64,000 nucleotides of DNA, taken from the NCBI GenBank assembly GCA_951406725.2, contig OX597814.1, forward strand, positions 119,350,001 to 119,414,000, written 5' to 3'. Shown here in pieces: positions 7,114-61,266 of the stretch (positions are counted from its first letter, which is position 1; every line of letters begins with the position of its first letter). The DNA comes from Octopus vulgaris. Its lineage: Eukaryota. A model generated the notes under the pieces. The model had not been told where the DNA came from. It saw only the letters and a program-made list of their open reading frames with translations, and ran no database searches. The position numbers were made by a program, and so were the translations under genes.

Positions 7114-7511
7114 GGAGGAGATGTTTTCTTGGGGCTATAAACATCAGTAGCATTCTCCTGTATAGGACGCCACAATTAACTGCAAATTATGTTACGGCTC
7201 CTTACTGCTACTGTTTATAACATATCTCACTCTTTTACAAGACTAGCGACAGTGAATCGCGAGAAAAATATATAGTAATTTGCGAGTGGATTGAGCTTTC
7301 ATCACTAGCTATTCATTAATACACGCTGACGATGGGTAACCACCCAGAAACACGAGTCCGTGTGTATCATTAGAGATGGAGGTGATGAAATTCCTCAGCA
7401 AATACTAATCGGACACAGACTGTATATCGATAACCAGCCGGAGAAAATGTCTTCTTGGGGGCTATAAACAACAGTAGCACTGTCCTGTGTAGGATGCCAC
7501 ACTTAATTGTC
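7114..7511 (+). mobile_element. Non-autonomous PLE / retrozyme-like element (~326 nt monomer plus ~70 nt terminal direct repeat)
   Basis: Direct repeat 7114-7182 / 7440-7509, internal HHR, flanked by (TG)n and (TA)n. Confidence 0.8.
7321..7363 (+). ncRNA. Type I hammerhead ribozyme, canonical core
   Basis: ACACG-CTGACGA-TGGGT(AACC)ACCCA-GAAAC(ACGA)GTC^CGTGT: all core residues and all three stems are intact. Confidence 0.9.
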
Positions 7512-9067
7512 ATATATATATATATATATATATAAGTTCAGTAAAATTTTAGATTCAGTTGAATATGGTACTTAAGTTAAAGGCACCAGAATTTGGTATG
7601 GTATTGTCTATAAATTTAAAATGGGGTGATTATAATCAAAATATTAATTACTACCATGTTTCTGTTGCTGAAACTTATTTCTCTGTCTACATACTTACCC
7701 TCTTTGTGATATTGGTAAATGGAATAAGTATAAAAATGAATCTTTTCAATTTAACTAAATTTATATGCAGCTGAAGATTGCTCTACATTTTAAAACTGAT
7801 GTAGTACTTACATTGTTTAATTAAATGGAGTCGCATGAAACGCTCGTACTGCATCACCTTTGGATAACCTTGTTGCTTATGCGCATATATTTATGTGCAC
7901 ATGTATTGTGTGCATATATACATATTATATATATCTGAGTAGTTAATACATATTTTGTGTGCTGTATTAAAAGAAATTTCTTTCAGTCTTCCACACCACA
8001 ATATATACGATGCACAAATCATGGTGATAATCGTCCTGTTTGTATTCGTATTTAACAACCCCGATAATATCGTAAGAATATCGAAAAGAAAAACGATCAT
8101 CCAACAAGTTTCTCAACTCACATTCTTAAATTGAAATGATTCACTAGATCTTCCTGCAGACATTAACATGTTATCTATGTAATTAAATGTATTTATAAAT
8201 TAATATATCTCGATGAATATCGTGAAATGTATGCTTATTTATAAATCAATTTCGAGACCTTTTGTTACAAGAAAATTTTCTGTGGCGATATCGAGACAGA
8301 ATGGTGAACTATAGAATTCTCTAGCTGAAAATATTGAATCAAATTCCTCAGGTATTTTCATATCTTTTGCAAAATAATTATTTAAACATAGACATATTGA
8401 CATCCGAAACTACAATCTATTTTATGAATCTTTGAGAATATGTCTCCAATTCGTCGATTTTTGAAAAACCAAATAAAAGAGATATATTAATATTCGGTTC
8501 TAAAGATCGGTTTGTTTTTGTAGAATAGCAGCGCTCTAGGCAAACATGGAGATTTCTTTTGATATGTGTGTTGGCAATTTATTTCCAACAAATAATAAAC
8601 ATAAAGTTATTTTATTATTTACGAATGACCTACAGGTATCGTATACTTTAAAAAAATACCAAGCTATATATCGTTTCCAAATAAGAGATTAAGGCGAGAA
8701 AAAAAACATTAATAGCTATCATTGATAGCCATCGATACAAATATGAACAGAAAGAAAACGTATTTATACTTACAATGATATTCATGTCTAGATGTATTTT
8801 TGTTTTTATGATGCTTTAAATGGATCGGTATATTTTTAAATGTGCATGCATCAGTCTGCATAAACAATCGTAAAATATTGGGTAGCTATGAGATCAGACA
8901 AATATACGAAGGTACGTACACATATACAGAAATAAACACAATTAAGAATATTACTGCCTATATCGGTATCTACGCTACGTGCCACTATATCAGGTAACAA
9001 ATATATCTTTGTCTACGTATTTGTACATATACAAATTTACACTGCGGCACATACTCCCTGTCTCTCT

Positions 9068-30152: not shown

Positions 30153-30988
30153 GCGTGCGTGTGTGAGTGTATGTGCATATATCATGTGTGTGTGTGTATA
30201 TATATACGCACACACATAGAAACACACACAGAGAAATATAACAGATAAAGTAGCGTTGCTTATGTACTTAACTCTGATTACGGAACAGTTGTCAACTAAT
30301 GGAATAATCATCTATTCTCTCACTTCAGTTCTTTTATCTGGTCAAGTTTTGTACACACACACGTGTGTGCAAATTATATAATCAATATATCTAAGAATTT
30401 TATAATAAAAATATAAGTTAAAATCATATAATACAATTTATGAATTACCGTTATGAAATTATTTATTAATAAACCGTTATCACACACATATATATCAAGG
30501 TTAAATCAATGATACCTTTAAAAGCACCCATTAAGATTCATTGGAAATTTAAATAATTAGAATTCTAATAATAAATACTGTATGATATATCTTCCTTATA
30601 TATTCATATTAGATTGTCAAAATATCTACCTAAATATTTTATTGTGAAATCAATAAGTATAATTTGAAAACAAAAACCGTTATCAACCTTGATAAGATTC
30701 CAATCTCAGCTAATGAAAAAATATTGAAATTGGTTGGTGCCTTTAAGAAAACAAAGGAGAAGTAGAGTGAAGAAAACCAGCACTAATGCAGTAGTTGCAG
30801 AATTACACTACAAACTTTATACACACACAAACACACACACACATATATATATATATACATATAGATATATAGACATACATATAGATATATAGACATATAT
30901 ATCTGTATATAGACATATATATATATATATGTATATATACATATGTATATACATATAGATATATATGTATATATAGACATACACACGC

Positions 30989-48669: not shown

Positions 48670-49568
48670 AAAAGCAATAAAGATTCAAGTTAATTTAAAT
48701 GAATTTACTTGAATATGGTACCTAACTTAGATGCACCAAAAAAAACTATACTGTTTTAACAATACAATAATGTGGGGTGATTATAAGCGAGAAAGAAGCA
48801 ACAAGAATGGATAGGTTTTTAGTACAATCGTTTCATACAAGGACAGGCTTTATTAAAAGTTGCAAAAATTACAGCATATAAACGTTTCATACAAGGACAG
48901 GCTTTATTAAAAGTTGCAAAAATTACAGCATATAAACGTGTCCTGTACTCATCAGCTAAAATACATGTGAGTTCTCTAGACATCCTATTGGTTGAGGCTA
49001 TACTCATGAAGTAGATAATTAAGTAACATAAACAGATTTCCAAAGTTCATTAAAGTTCTTTAAAGATGATGTACAGTCTTATCACAGAATTTTTAAAAAG
49101 TTTTAACAGCATCACAGAGAAGGTGACCTAATCCATAGTGCACATATGAATTTCCAGAGATATGATGAGGGATTACATACTCACAGACGACAAATTTATC
49201 CATTGTTAATCACAACGAGGTGGGTCTCAATTCCTGCTTATTAGCATTACAGAGAGGGTGAATTAATCCTTTGTATAGATGCACAATTTCCAATGGTGTA
49301 GATGTAAATTTCAGAGAAATGAAGAGGAATTTCATATTCACAGGCGATAAATTTATCAATGGTTGAACACAATGAGGTAGGTATGAATTCTTGTTATATG
49401 ATTAGGTATTTGCCACATTAATCACATTACTGCTATTTACAAGAGGCAGTAGCTATTTAACTTTTAAAGGCTGAAGGGCTTTCTAGAGAGGCAAAGAATA
49501 GAAAAGGGAGGGAATAGAAGAAAAGAGAGAAAATAAAGGAGGAGGGAGCAAAAAAAGATATATTATGA

Positions 49569-50690
49569 TATAAAAAAGATATATTATGGCTGAATATTCC
49601 TTTCAACTGTGCGATACAATCGGATATACAGAACAAATTCAAAGTAATTCTGGAAAAAAATTTCCCTATATCTCATAGATATCATAGAATTATTTCTAGG
49701 AAAACAGTTAGGATTTCTTATTCTACCCTCCAAAATATGTCCACTTTAATAGCTAAGATTAATAATAACAACATTAAACTAGCCAGGAAAGATAGAAATA
49801 AAAATAATAATTTCAGCATGAATACCAATAGCAATTATAATAATACTACCAACAATAAAAACAGCAATAGTAATTATCAAAACATAGGTGAAATTAGTAA
49901 CCACAGAATGACTAATAACATTAACATTAATAGTAATAATAACAATGCCGATATTAATAGAAGTAATAATGTTAATAATAGAAATAATAAAAATAAGGCT
50001 AATGGAGAAAATAAGGAGAATGAAAATATCAGTGATATCTATAACAACAATATGCAGTCGGATAAAAAGACTAACAATAATAGCAACATTACCAATAATA
50101 TAAGAAATCATGGTAGGACTTTAGACCTAAATGATGAAACAGAAGGATCAATAAATAATAGCAATACTTTAGATATCAGCACTAACTATAGAAATGATAA
50201 TCAAAGTAATAGGAACCTAAGACATCTACCCAAGAATAATCCAAAGCCTGAAGTTGTTCCTCCTGTGTGTAAGTGTAGAATAAAATCAAAATGCCCGGCA
50301 CCTGGTCTATGTGGGGAAAATAATGTAATCTATAAATGTACCATATCCACGGAGAATAACAAATATTTTTACATTGGATGTACAATTAATTTTCTTTCTA
50401 GAGTTAGAAATCACATCTCGTCTTTTAAATTACGTCATAAAGCTGGTACCACCACACTTTCAAACAAAATCTGGGAACTCAAAAATAATAATAATAATTA
50501 TAACCTTAATTGGGAAATAGTTAGGAGAGCAATTCCGTACAAAAATAGTAGGGTTGGTTGCCAACTATGCTCCATGGAGACGTATGAAATTCTAAAGCAT
50601 AGAAAACATAGAAACTTATTGAATAACCATATCGAACTAGGTCAAGTTTGTGTCCACGCTAAATTGAAGACTTTAAAATATTATAAATGA
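49569..50690 (+). CDS. PLE ORF C-terminal part: post-RT linker, Asn-rich insert, Cys motif and GIY-YIG endonuclease (5'-truncated, RT absent)
   Basis: The frame is open upstream of Met 49737 (ILWLNIPFN..NFPISHRYHRII..TVRISYST). It then reads CKCRIKSKCPAPGLC, NVIYKC..YFYIGCT..RVRNH..CQLCSMETYEI..LLN. Confidence 0.9.
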   Translation, partial: YKKDILWLNIPFNCAIQSDIQNKFKVILEKNFPISHRYHRIISRKTVRISYSTLQNMSTLIAKINNNNIKLARKDRNKNNNFSMNTNSNYNNTTNNKNSNSNYQNIGEISNHRMTNNININSNNNNADINRSNNVNNRNNKNKANGENKENENISDIYNNNMQSDKKTNNNSNITNNIRNHGRTLDLNDETEGSINNSNTLDISTNYRNDNQSNRNLRHLPKNNPKPEVVPPVCKCRIKSKCPAPGLCGENNVIYKCTISTENNKYFYIGCTINFLSRVRNHISSFKLRHKAGTTTLSNKIWELKNNNNNYNLNWEIVRRAIPYKNSRVGCQLCSMETYEILKHRKHRNLLNNHIELGQVCVHAKLKTLKYYK

Positions 50691-52145
50691 TTAGAATATT
50701 CGTAACTAGATAGATAGATATAACTTGATTTCTACTAGTATAACACTGCTTTAAGTAGATAACTAAGAGTTCTCACACTACAGTTATCTTTTTCCTTATA
50801 TCTGCATCGGTTTTTTTTGAGAACAGGGAAATGAATAGTACTTATACGCTGCTTAATTGAGGCTTTATTTAATTTCAAACTCATAATTTTAAATTCTTAC
50901 TTTTAAATCTTAATTGTAATTTGTAATTTTAATTCCTAACTTAATCTAATTTAAGTAGCATAACTCTAATAAAATAAAATGAGTTACTATAGCCCCATAA
51001 TTCTATTTCAAAATTAAATAAATAAGGCTACTCCCTCGGTGATAATATGATTATCTTCATTATGATAGACAATCCCCTAACACCTTGTAAATGATCTTCT
51101 AAGATTTGACCTGTAGTCCGTCAATGTATGAATAATAAAGGCAACTCCTTAAGACAATAAAATGAATAAATTAAATAAGTAAACTTTAATGACTTTTTGA
51201 TAAGATTATACTTAGATTTTCCTAATGTATTTTCTTCTGATTTTAGCATCTGACCCCTAAACCCCTGACTGTGTTATCTCTTTAGATTCTCTTTAAATTC
51301 ATAGCTGATTTCAACAGCAATAAATTAGCTGTTTTACTGGTCAAAGAATAATATTCTCCTCTAGTTCCTAGATGCCTGTAAATTAAAACCAGACTTGCCG
51401 TCTGCTAATTCTTCTGTATAACTAGAACCCTCTTTTTTTCTTTTTCTTTTTTCCCTTCTTTCCCTATTTCTTTCTCTTTTCTCTTTTTTCTTTTTCTTCT
51501 TCCTATTCTCTTTTTCCTTTTCTCTTCTCTTTTAGTCCCTCTCCCCCCCTTTTTTGCTCCCTCCTCCTTTATTTTCTCTCTTTTCTTCTATTCCCTCCCC
51601 TTTTCTATTCTTTGCCTCTCTAGAAAGCCCTTCAGCCTTTAAAAGTTAAATAGCTACTGCCTCTTGTAAATAGCAGTAATGTGATTAATGTGGCAAATAC
51701 CTAATCATATAACAAGAATTCATACCTACCTCATTGTGTTCAACCATTGATAAATTTATCGCCTGTGAATATGAAATTCCTCTTCATTTCTCTGGAAATT
51801 TACATCTACACCATTGGAAATTGTGCATCTATACAAAGGATTAATTCACCCTCTCTGTAATGCTAATAAGCAGGAATTGAGACCCACCTCGTTGTGATTA
51901 ACAATGGATAAATTTGTCGTCTGTGAGTATGTAATCCCTCATCATATCTCTGGAAATTCATATGTGCACTATGGATTAGGTCACCTTCTCTGTGATGCTG
52001 TTAAAACTTTTTTAAAATTCTGTGATAAGACTGTACATCATCTTTAAAGAACTTTAATGAACTTTGGAAATCTGTTTATGTTACTTAATTATCTACTTCA
52101 TGAGTATAGCCTCAACCAATAGGATGTCTAGAGAACTCACATGTA

Positions 52146-52236
52146 TTTTAGCTGATGAGTACAGGACACGTTTATATGCTGTAATTTTTGCAACTTTTAA
52201 TAAAGCCTGTCTTTGTATGAAACGATTGTACTAAAA
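52146..52236 (+). ncRNA. Type I hammerhead ribozyme with extended stem II (PLE 3' repeat)
   Basis: TTTTAG-CTGATGA-GTACA.GGACA..TGTC.TGTAT-GAAAC(GATT)GTA^CTAAAA; inverted copy at ~48817-48961. Confidence 0.85.
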
Positions 52237-52282
52237 ACCTATCCATTCTTGTTGCTTCTTTCTCGCGTATATATATATATAT

Positions 52283-52758
52283 ATATTAATAGTCATCGCC
52301 ATACTAATATGTCAGTCTATAAATATAAGACTAAAGCTGTCGCTGATTAGCTCCAAGATGTCTGACTAGCAAGGTGAAGCGGCTGACCTCCCCTGTTCGA
52401 AGGTTATAATGGACGCAGGTTCGTGTGTCATATAGCTAGCTAGAGGCGATGGCCTCTTGGAGCTAATCAGCGACAGCTTTAGGCTTATATTTATAGACTG
52501 CCATATTAGTATGGCGATAACTATTAATATCCAGTAACGCTGCCGTAATCTCCTTTAGAGAGACTTAGTAAATTTAATATTTGTATTATTGAAAACAAGT
52601 GGATGTATTCCACTGTAACTAGGTAAATGAAATCTTCGAACAGACAGTCAGTAGCGACACCTGCTGGTTCTGACTACGCTGCATTGATAAAGGGCAACAA
52701 CCCTGAAACATGTCTGCAGATGTCTGACTAGCAAGGTGAAGCGGCTGACCTCCCCTGT
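52283..52758 (+). mobile_element. Retrozyme-like non-autonomous PLE (362-nt monomer) in (TA)n
   Basis: Identical 41-bp direct repeat 52356-52396 / 52718-52758; inverted 5' segment 52283-52358 vs 52455-52530; HHR at 52679-52719. Confidence 0.85.
52679..52719 (+). ncRNA. Minimal type I hammerhead ribozyme, U3-A8 core variant
   Basis: CTGCA-TTGATAA-AGGG(CAACAA)CCCT-GAA-ACATGT-C^TGCAG. Confidence 0.85.
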
Positions 52759-54419
52759 ATATATATATATATATATATATATATGTAATTATACATACGC
52801 TCTCTCACACACACATACTACACAAAACACACTCTCATATATTTATACAACGAGCTGACACAAAGTTTTCGTCGACTAAATTCAATTACAAGAAGCTGAT
52901 TTGCCTGGGGCTTTTGCAGATACTGTGTAAGGAGCGCATAGCACGACTGGGACCACTTAGTTGCAGTAAGCTCATAATCACATAGACATACCCGCTCATG
53001 CATGCATACATACATACATACATACGTACATACACAGACACATACATACATACACACACATACATACATACATACATACATACATACATACATACATACA
53101 TACATGCACACACACATACATACACACACATAAATACATACACATGCATACATACATATTCGGAACCGAATCAAACTGAAGTAATTAATGTAACTCCTAC
53201 TAAATGTGTTGTTTGTCCACAGGTATGTATGTATGTATGTATGTACGGACGGACGTACCTACGGATGTATGTACGTACGTACGTACATATGTATGCATGT
53301 ATGTATGTATGTAAGCATGCCTCTATGAAGACTGACCAGGACTGACTGGGAATGTATGTATGAAGACTGACCGGCAGAAATATATAAAAGAAACTGTATT
53401 TGTGAAGTATAGAAGTTTCTTATTCGTACCGAGGAGACAACGCCAGTTGGCAAAACAGAAATTTGTATTCAGTTATTGAATGTATTCTAGTTTACGACTG
53501 ATTCTTTCAGTAACGTCTTCAGAAAAGAAGAAAGCAATGCAAATCGTAGACATCTCCATCCATATATTGAACAAAAAAGAAAGTTTTTGGCATTTCTCGT
53601 GTCTCTCAGTCGATTTAACCGTAATTTATATGCAACATTTGTATTGTAGTGTAATACTAAGAGCAAAAAGAGACAGTACATTATGAGTTGCTGTTATTTC
53701 AGTCGATTTCAAAACAAGCCAATTAGGTTGGTTGAATCTAAGCCAAATTCCAAAAGAATAGTGGTTTACGATTATGCCAGAATTAACAACTAAAATGCTT
53801 ATTACCTGAGTATAGAATAACAGAATATTACGTATTTTCTGAAGCATTGCATGCAACAAAAGACTGGTATATTACTCCGTATATCAGCTTAACCAGATCT
53901 TAAGTTACATTAATAGTCTTTCTAAAAATCCAATGAGTATAGAAATTATGACAGACAGACAAATTCAACAAAAACCAATAGTAATAAATCCACACGAATA
54001 ATCCTTTAGCAAATCCAGACCTAATAAATCATTTACGTGCAATGTCATCTCGTTATAGACACCATTCGTTTTATTATAGCATGTAATTGAATCCCCATTT
54101 TATCAGTTTTGTGTGCCTTAAAAGAAAGTACATTCTTTTAAATTTAGGCAAGATTAGGTATGATACAATTAGAATTAAATCGAATACATTCAAATTTTTA
54201 GTCTAATGTATCAACCCCAGTACTACTTATTCTACGGGTCGCTTTTGCCGAACCGCTAAATTATGGGGATGTAAACACACCAGCATCGGTTGTCAAATTG
54301 TAAGAAGATGGGCAAATATATACACAAAGACACAGACTATTAATTGAATATTATTCACCGCAGTTTAACAGCATCAGTATGTGGTGTTACACTTGCAATA
54401 GTATCAATATATATATATA

Positions 54420-60997: not shown

Positions 60998-61266
60998 ATA
61001 CAATATGTTACATTACTCGGTAGTCAAGATAAAACTCTGAGTTTCAGATGCCGAAGTGGAAATCCACAACACCATCTCTTCGGTTATCTGGCTATTTTCT
61101 AGCCAGATAACCGAAGAGATGGTGTTGTGGATTTCCACTTCGGCATCTGAAACTCAGAGTTTTATCTTGACTACCGAGTAATGTAACATATTGTATAGAT
61201 AAATTTCCTCTATTTACATAATATTGAGGTCTCTTTCTTTCTTTTGTTATCTTACCGTTTTATCAA
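60993..61266 (+). mobile_element. PLE-type end with 102-bp perfect hairpin and U4C hammerhead-like motif
   Basis: Arms 60993-61094 / 61100-61201; AGATAA-CCGAAGA-GATG..CATCT-GAAACT(CAG)AGTT^TTATCT at 61105-61167. Confidence 0.75.

What the first reader, a model, noticed from the sequence alone, without database searches (positions are those of the whole stretch)
52283..52758. Intact 362-nt retrozyme with a U3-A8 hammerhead; its 5' boundary maps to the predicted cleavage site
Seen: a perfect minimal HHR with a UUGAUAA core and GUC^ at 52714. The identical terminal repeats begin at 52356 and 52718, so the forward segment starts only ~3 nt downstream of the position equivalent to the cut. This is what reverse transcription of a ribozyme-cut RNA to its 5' end would give. 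It is then capped by a 76-bp inversion, and the element sits 16 bp from the PLE end in the same TA tract. This is the best internal evidence here that a variant core is active in vivo.
Basis: partly seen in the sequence, partly recalled or inferred. Interest (0 to 1): 0.78.

Follow-up and report, generated by a model that had tools for sequence, protein, structure and literature searches.

The report
Dispersed retrozyme copy, U3-A8 hammerhead
This is one slightly decayed copy of a common 362-base repeat that carries a predicted self-cutting RNA motif with an already known base swap; it was likely pasted into a TA microsatellite by a Penelope-type retrotransposon, and its start near the predicted cut site may be chance.

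Summary
The anatomy is real: type I hammerhead with U3-A8 core (C17 = 52714), identical 41-bp repeats 362 bp apart, a 76-bp inverted cap (73/76), (TA)n on both sides, 16 nt from a Penelope-like element (PLE). Public contigs show a high-copy family with head-to-tail 362-bp joints and no core change among the 40 of 79 variant rows shown. It is a new member of the known animal non-LTR retrozymes; natural U3-A8 is published and active in vitro. The headline inference is weak. The forward piece starts 4-7 nt after the cut-equivalent (about 2% by chance, one copy). But 0 of 18 inversion breakpoints shown for other copies lie there, and a second retrozyme in the window starts about 82 nt after its cut. 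The copy also reads through an uncut ribozyme, as a circular or uncleaved template would give. Better supported: the family has a recurring end at 52530 abutting (TA)n, exactly where the cap starts, so the cap is a PLE-style inverted 5'-truncated copy. With one ribozyme and 4-5 private changes the locus cannot release a monomer. Cleavage and RNA were not testable. Interest 0.35.

The parts
52267..52282 (.). Left (TA)n remnant of the target microsatellite, between the PLE end and the cap
   Evidence: sequence
52283..52358 (-). Inverted, 5'-truncated 76-bp copy of unit positions 52455-52530; starts at the family's recurring TA-abutting end; 3 mismatches; 3-nt microhomology (52356-58) at the head-to-head joint
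   Evidence: loose ends at 52530 in 26 (X1) and 30 (X4) contigs
52356..52758 (+). Forward copy, 403 nt = one 362-nt unit plus a 41-nt overlap
   Evidence: 362-back joints
52356..52396 (+). First copy of the 41-bp identical overlap; starts at +4..+7 after the cut-equivalent (52352|52353)
52522..52530 (+). AT-only motif at the family's recurring 3' end (inferred reverse-transcription priming site), 178 nt after the cut-equivalent
   Evidence: table 7
52672..52724 (+). Type I hammerhead: stem I 52679-83/52715-19 continuing through an internal loop into a long rod; core with U3 (52684) and A8 (52689); stem II 52691-52704 with a 6-nt loop; GAAA 52705-08; palindrome 52708-13; predicted cut after 52714
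52718..52758 (+). Second copy of the 41-bp overlap; 3' end of the forward copy, abutting (TA)n
52759..52784 (.). Right (TA)n remnant of the target microsatellite
   Evidence: sequence
48787..52266 (+). Neighbouring 5'-truncated PLE: inverted arm about 48787-49555, GIY-YIG-like C-terminal frame 49569-50690, own C3-G8 hammerhead (core 52152, cut after 52230); unrelated in sequence to the retrozyme

Best explanation
The locus is a solo, slightly decayed copy (1.11 units plus an inverted 76-bp piece, inside a TA tract) of a high-copy 362-bp tandem repeat family whose predicted hammerhead ribozyme has a U3-A8 core, and it was likely written into the genome by a Penelope-type reverse transcriptase from a circular or uncleaved template. 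Shown: anatomy, family abundance, head-to-tail joints, a recurring family end at 52530 against (TA)n, no core variant among the rows shown. Inferred: tandem source loci are transcribed; the ribozymes cut as dimers through the palindromic stem III; monomers are ligated into circles; a PLE endonuclease nicks both strands of (TA)n. One nick primed at the usual site (52530) and stopped after 76 nt, giving the cap. The other primed at 52758, went once round through the ribozyme junction and stopped 38-41 nt into the second lap, where the two cDNAs were joined at a 3-nt microhomology. On this reading the stop near the cut-equivalent is coincidence: priming lay 44 nt past the cut and the second lap was short.
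For: Period and identical overlap. 362-back joints in X1, X4, X18. 4182 and 3342 contigs laid in X1 and X4; 20 of 24 listed runs, 4 coded organisms, 10 studies hold the stretch or part of it. Predicted circle -120.8 kcal/mol, z -6.8, 0 of 60 shuffles as good, GC 42%. Stems I and II predicted at 0.78-1.0, cleavage-ready fold costs 1.4 kcal/mol. Double-hammerhead model -25.4 vs -23.8 for two monomers. Only 1 of 39 variable positions shown lies in the 35 core/stem positions (52691 A>G, keeps a G-U pair; p 0.09) and 0 in 52701-52758 (p 0.0007), while loop II varies at 42-69%. TA-tailed loose ends at 52530 in 26 and 30 contigs. Inverted 5'-truncated copies and microsatellite bias are typical of PLEs (PMC8557442). 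A PLE protein nicks and extends both strands, initiates internally and mainly uses uncleaved RNA (PMC11167929). Rolling-circle RT by PLEs was proposed for animal retrozymes (PMC7229834). 0 of 18 breakpoints at +1..+7. The second retrozyme is also one unit plus a short overlap, starting about +82.
Against: A start within +1..+7 of the cut has about 2% chance. A rough Bayes figure with assumed inputs gives 0.49-0.76 for a cut template at priors of 5-15%. 0 of 13 non-edge breakpoints is also expected 78% of the time under uniform placement, so it only excludes the cut as a dominant boundary. Three of 13 lie within 15 nt of the cut (p 0.09). Five of 18 sit at 52397-52401, the edge of my reference, and cannot be placed. 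The contig tables are truncated (40 of 79, 15 of 24, 24 of 421 rows), joint orientation is not given, and some joints may be one locus seen in two organisms. Whether 52758 is a usual priming site could not be seen (reference edge). The mobilising PLE is not identified.
Confidence: 0.55

Rival explanations
1. One reading: the template was a linear multimeric RNA cut at the upstream ribozyme and uncut at the next one. RT ran to the 5'-OH end and lost 3-6 nt on joining to the inverted piece, so this boundary records in vivo cleavage by the U3-A8 core. The family identity and PLE-type integration stay the same.
For: Boundary at +4..+7, about 2% by chance. Partly cleaved multimers exist for axolotl retrozymes (PMC7229834). 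In R2 the ribozyme cut site correlates with the type of 5' junction (PMC3774820 abstract). Core conserved in the rows shown.
Against: One copy, noticed after the fact, not exact. 0 of 18 breakpoints of other copies at +1..+7. No loose-end row at 52715-21 among 24 of 421 shown, while 52530 does show (weak: ranking seems depth-based). Second retrozyme starts about +82. For the PAc PLE, cleavage is dispensable in vitro and no RNA reads began or ended at the cut (PMC11167929).
Confidence: 0.33
2. One compound event or a dedicated partner: the adjacent PLE mobilised this retrozyme in the same insertion.
For: 16 nt apart in one TA tract; both have the inverted-plus-forward layout.
Against: No similarity between the unit and the PLE terminal region (score 20; best shuffle 28). 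PLE arms differ at 2 mismatches and 2 gap columns in about 668, the cap differs at 3 of 76 (p 0.009), and the retrozyme has about 6 private changes in 438 (p 0.02), so it looks older. The window has 69 (TA)8+ tracts, and the second retrozyme also ends in one.
Confidence: 0.07
3. DNA-level origin: a satellite fragment moved by recombination or circular-DNA reinsertion, with a vestigial ribozyme and no RNA step.
For: Head-to-tail units exist in DNA. Eight of nine predicted Xenopus retrozyme dimers did not cleave in vitro (bioRxiv 10.64898/2026.07.22.740005). No RNA evidence was obtained here.
Against: A recurring end at 52530 against (TA)n, a head-to-head inversion, and conservation around the core with a variable loop fit target-primed RT and selection on the RNA fold.
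Confidence: 0.05

Closest known systems
Animal non-LTR retrozymes (Cervera and de la Pena 2020, PMC7229834; mussel 350-390 bp, axolotl 330/350 bp, coral 220-245 bp)
   Same: Unit size, type I hammerhead with weak stem III, GC under 50%, tandem joints, highly self-paired predicted circle with the ribozyme free to fold, a PLE in the same genome.
   Different: U3-A8 core and A10.1-U11.1; a recurring end and a PLE-style inverted piece are seen here; expression and cleavage are not shown here.
Solo 'monomer' retrozyme derivatives (Li, Clavereau, Pollet 2026, bioRxiv 10.64898/2026.07.22.740005)
   Same: Dispersed single-ribozyme copy of a tandem family, linked to PLEs.
   Different: There 24 of 57 Xenopus families match known TEs, nearly all PLE termini; this unit does not match the neighbouring PLE. 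The parts read do not describe insertion footprints.
U3-A8 hammerheads (Perreault 2011, PMC3088659; S. mansoni Cercyon PLE motifs, Cervera 2014, PMC4209133)
   Same: Same compensatory swap of the 3-8 pair.
   Different: In S. mansoni they are heterogeneous minimal motifs of PLEs, mostly single; here the swap appears to be the majority core of a retrozyme family.
Penelope-like element insertions (PMC8557442; PAc biochemistry, PMC11167929)
   Same: Partial tandem plus adjacent inverted 5'-truncated copy, AT-rich or microsatellite target, internal RT initiation.
   Different: Non-coding 362-nt unit; the footprint is inferred from contigs only.
R2 elements with a 5' HDV-like ribozyme (PMC3774820)
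   Different: In R2 it is family-wide and assayed; here it is one copy and is not seen in other breakpoints.

Membership tests
Animal non-LTR retrozyme | Type I hammerhead in the unit | tested here: met
   Own descriptor scan and folding. Rfam gave no hit.
Animal non-LTR retrozyme | Unit of 150-450 bp, GC under 50% | tested here: met
   362 bp, 42% GC
Animal non-LTR retrozyme | Multi-copy with head-to-tail arrangement | tested here: met
   362-back joints in X1 (9 contigs), X4 (11), X18 (1); thousands of contigs laid. Array length is not shown by contigs.
Animal non-LTR retrozyme | Non-coding, no LTRs | tested here: met
   No frame of 150 aa or more overlaps it (shorter frames not listed); the 41-bp repeat is unit overlap; no tRNA gene. 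PBS and PPT were not searched.
Animal non-LTR retrozyme | Highly self-paired circle with the ribozyme free to fold | tested here: met
   Prediction only: z -6.8, 65% paired, stems I/II 0.78-1.0
Animal non-LTR retrozyme | Self-cleavage in vitro or in vivo | not testable with these tools
   No assay; contigs cannot show RNA ends
Animal non-LTR retrozyme | Expressed as unit-length linear and circular RNA | not testable with these tools
   Only contigs were available
'Active' retrozyme locus (Li et al. 2026 criterion) | [quoted passage not shown] | tested here: not met
   One ribozyme at this locus; it is a solo derivative
PLE-derived retrozyme | Sequence similarity to a PLE terminal repeat | tested here: inconclusive
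   None to the neighbouring PLE; other PLE families could not be searched, no genome held
Canonical metazoan type I hammerhead (Cervera 2014) | Helix II 4 bp; helix III 1-2 bp with a small palindromic loop | tested here: met
   4 bp; 2 bp plus 2-nt loop, palindromic
Canonical metazoan type I hammerhead (Cervera 2014) | Helix I 6 bp with loop 1-loop 2 contacts | tested here: inconclusive
   5 bp plus G.A (a U-A pair in 5-29% of family depth at 52678), then an internal loop; tertiary contacts not testable
Canonical metazoan type I hammerhead (Cervera 2014) | C3-G8 and G10.1-C11.1 | tested here: not met
   U3-A8 and A10.1-U11.1; U3-A8 is a published functional covariation
Elements whose 5' junction is set by ribozyme cleavage (R2-like) | Family-wide 5' ends at the cut | tested here: inconclusive
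   This copy +4..+7; 0 of 18 other breakpoints; tables truncated and orientation unknown

The most novel reading that the evidence does not exclude
A retrozyme family running on a U3-A8 hammerhead has amplified to high copy number in several related animals, and its dispersed copies record both ends of the mechanism: a fixed PLE-type priming site 178 nt past the cut, aimed at (TA)n, and, in a subset such as this copy, a 5' end at the ribozyme cut. That would be genomic proof that cleaved linear RNA serves as template, and would let the circle-versus-linear question for animal retrozymes be answered by counting junctions.
Probability: 0.25. Interest if true: 0.6.

Novelty: new member of a known kind. 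Interest (0 to 1): 0.35.

Why it matters
How animal retrozymes get back into the genome (which enzyme, circular or linear template) is still inferred from co-occurrence and phylogeny. This family shows a PLE-type footprint: a recurring end against (TA)n and an inverted truncated partner. It has enough copies for a junction count to test the template question. It also suggests that U3-A8 can be the main core of a successful element. The single locus proves little, and both the element class and the core variant are published.

Tried and rejected
No genome held, so the 5'-boundary census could not be run. Rfam missed the motif at three scales; the C3-G8 motif at 7319-7367 scored only 13.4 bits against a gathering score of 34, so a blank says little. 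Expression: no RNA holder listed. X11 and X18 are 'RNA?' by guess; their depth profiles follow the DNA runs (Spearman 0.82-0.92), no silent control was laid, and I draw nothing from them about expression. Depth differences along the unit were not interpreted. A 21-nt pattern found 0 matches in metagenome, viral and prokaryote contigs. No earlier findings. The PLE frame had no Pfam, PDB or homologue hit; only the atlas gave GIY-YIG look-alikes at 0.94-0.96. The bacterial promoter/terminator scan is not meaningful here. Not-in-print searches; none of the listings or texts read describes a retrozyme family with a U3-A8 core. Unseen sources that may: Lunse et al. (PMC5785218, not held), the supplement of PMC7229834, file 1 of PMC4209133 and the bioRxiv supplements. 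I suspected a cephalopod host from the microsatellite load (impression, untested); passages of an Octopus repeat paper had 0 occurrences of ribozyme or retrozyme.

Full report
Observation. The + strand holds a type I hammerhead: stem I 52679-83 with 52715-19, core UUGAUAA at 52684-90 (U3 and A8 replace C3 and G8), 4-bp stem II with a 6-nt loop, GAAA, a palindromic hexamer 52708-13 and C17 at 52714. My descriptor found 5 candidates in the window and none in 20 locally shuffled windows. Rfam missed it. An exact 41-bp repeat at 52356 and 52718 sets the period at 362. The cap 52283-52358 is the reverse complement of 52455-52530 with 3 mismatches and shares 3 nt with the forward piece, so the forward start is +4 to +7 after the cut-equivalent. 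TA tracts flank both sides; the PLE ends at 52266.

The ribozyme. The geometry matches the canonical metazoan type I of PMC4209133 (passages) in helix II and helix III. Helix I is 5 bp and continues through an internal loop into a long rod, and pair 10.1-11.1 is A-U. The unit folds as a circle at -120.8 kcal/mol (z -6.8, 0 of 60 shuffles), with the ribozyme at a tip and a cleavage-ready fold 1.4 kcal/mol above the ensemble. A double hammerhead through the palindrome evaluates at -25.4 against -23.8 for two monomers. These are predictions. The locus has one ribozyme, so its transcript could be cut once but could not release a unit-length RNA; by the criterion of bioRxiv 10.64898/2026.07.22.740005 (parts 1-3 of 5 read) it is a solo derivative.

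The family. No genome is held. Twenty of 24 listed runs, in 4 coded organisms and 10 studies, hold the stretch or part of it. I laid 4 of them on one exact unit, 52397-52758 (contigs only, 85% likeness): 4182, 3342, 264 and 40 contigs. Joints going back 362 occur in X1 (9 contigs), X4 (11) and X18 (1), so head-to-tail units exist in DNA. Among the 40 of 79 variant rows shown (39 positions) none touches U3, A8 or another core base. One lies in a stem (52691 A>G, keeping a G-U pair), none in 52701-52758 (p 0.0007), and loop II varies at 42-69%. For the 35 core and stem positions alone the depletion is not significant (p 0.09). Hidden rows could include a minority C3 or G8. The loop II variant reads CAAAUA, which I recall as the Schistosoma Sm-alpha loop; no call confirms this. 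The window copy differs from at least 99% of family depth at four positions, so it has decayed by about 1%. One of the three cap mismatches (52330/52483) is a change in the forward copy; the cap has the family base.

The ends. Loose ends at 52530 run into TA sequence in 26 (X1) and 30 (X4) contigs. This recurring end is exactly where the cap starts. The cap is therefore best read as a cDNA primed at the family's usual site on the opposite strand and truncated after 76 nt. An inverted 5'-truncated copy next to the 5' end and a microsatellite bias are typical of PLEs (PMC8557442, passages). The PAc protein nicks and extends both strands at AT-rich DNA, initiates inside the RNA, does not need ribozyme cleavage in vitro, and no reads began or ended at its cut (PMC11167929, parts 1-2 of 4).

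Does the 5' boundary record the cut? For: about 2% chance for one boundary; partly cleaved multimers exist (PMC7229834, parts 2-4 of 6); R2 gives a precedent (PMC3774820, abstract). Against: 9 opposite-strand joints are shown (of 15 joints shown, 24 listed). Their 13 non-edge breakpoints fall at +13, 81, 144, 145, 149, 160, 197, 200, 271, 310, 322, 348 and 353, none at +1..+7. Five more sit at the reference edge (52397-52401) and cannot be placed. This excludes the cut as the dominant boundary (upper bound 15-21%) but not as a minor one; orientation is not given and joints may not be independent. No loose-end row at 52715-21 appears among 24 of 421 shown (weak). A second, unrelated retrozyme-like copy at 7114-7516 (period about 326, C3-G8 core, C17 at 7358, TA tail) starts about 82 nt after its cut. 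Both copies are one unit plus a short overlap (41 and about 75 nt) and both read through an intact cut site, as one lap round a circle with a short second lap would give (inference, n = 2). A rough Bayes figure with assumed inputs is 0.49-0.76 before allowing for after-the-fact selection; I put the cut-template reading at about one in three.

The neighbour. The PLE (48787-52266) has an inverted arm of about 680 bp, a C-terminal frame with GIY-YIG look-alikes (atlas 0.94-0.96; no Pfam, PDB or homologue hit) and its own C3-G8 hammerhead. It shares no sequence with the unit, and its arms are more alike than cap and forward copy (p 0.009; p 0.02 on private changes). Two independent insertions at one TA tract, the retrozyme first, is the likely history, though a cap from a different template would also explain part of the gap.

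Comparison and verdict. The element meets every testable feature of animal non-LTR retrozymes (PMC7229834); cleavage and expression were not testable. U3-A8 covariation is natural and was already shown active in vitro (PMC3088659, section 8 and passages), and about 1,300 such motifs occur in S. mansoni PLEs (PMC4209133). Also seen as passages only: PMC6155905, PMC6765202, PMC7151607, PMC13282606. I found no report of a retrozyme family with this core, but Lunse et al. and several supplements could not be read. Verdict: new member of a known kind. Interest 0.35.

Noticed in passing
window 7114-7516 (+): Second retrozyme-like solo copy: period about 326, diverged overlap of about 75 nt, C3-G8 hammerhead (core 7326, C17 7358; Rfam Hammerhead_1 13.4 bits, below gathering), ends in (TA)n; unrelated in sequence to the first.
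   Followed up: partly
window 54553-54510 (-): Minimal C3-G8 hammerhead candidate with 4-bp stems and a palindromic stem III, between microsatellites.
   Followed up: no
window 30681-30740 (+): Weak U3-A8 candidate: 8-bp stem I, 3-bp stem II, no stem III; may be chance.
   Followed up: no
window 48787-52266: Young PLE with an inverted arm, an internal 54-bp duplication in the left arm (48823-48942), 157-bp-period internal repeats (51709-51972), a hammerhead with a very long stem II (52152-52236) and an Asn-rich stretch before the GIY-YIG-like domain.
   Followed up: partly
positions 52397-52401: Five of 18 inversion breakpoints sit here, next to the equivalent of this copy's 3' end (52758): either a second hot spot or an edge effect of the reference (p about 0.025 if uniform).
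   Followed up: partly
positions 52469-52496: A subfamily with a different sequence in this stretch (loose ends in 33-39 contigs in X4 and X1).
   Followed up: no
window 61031-61163: Near-perfect hairpin of about 60 bp, probably a small inverted-repeat element; the Rfam microRNA hits on it are below gathering.
   Followed up: no
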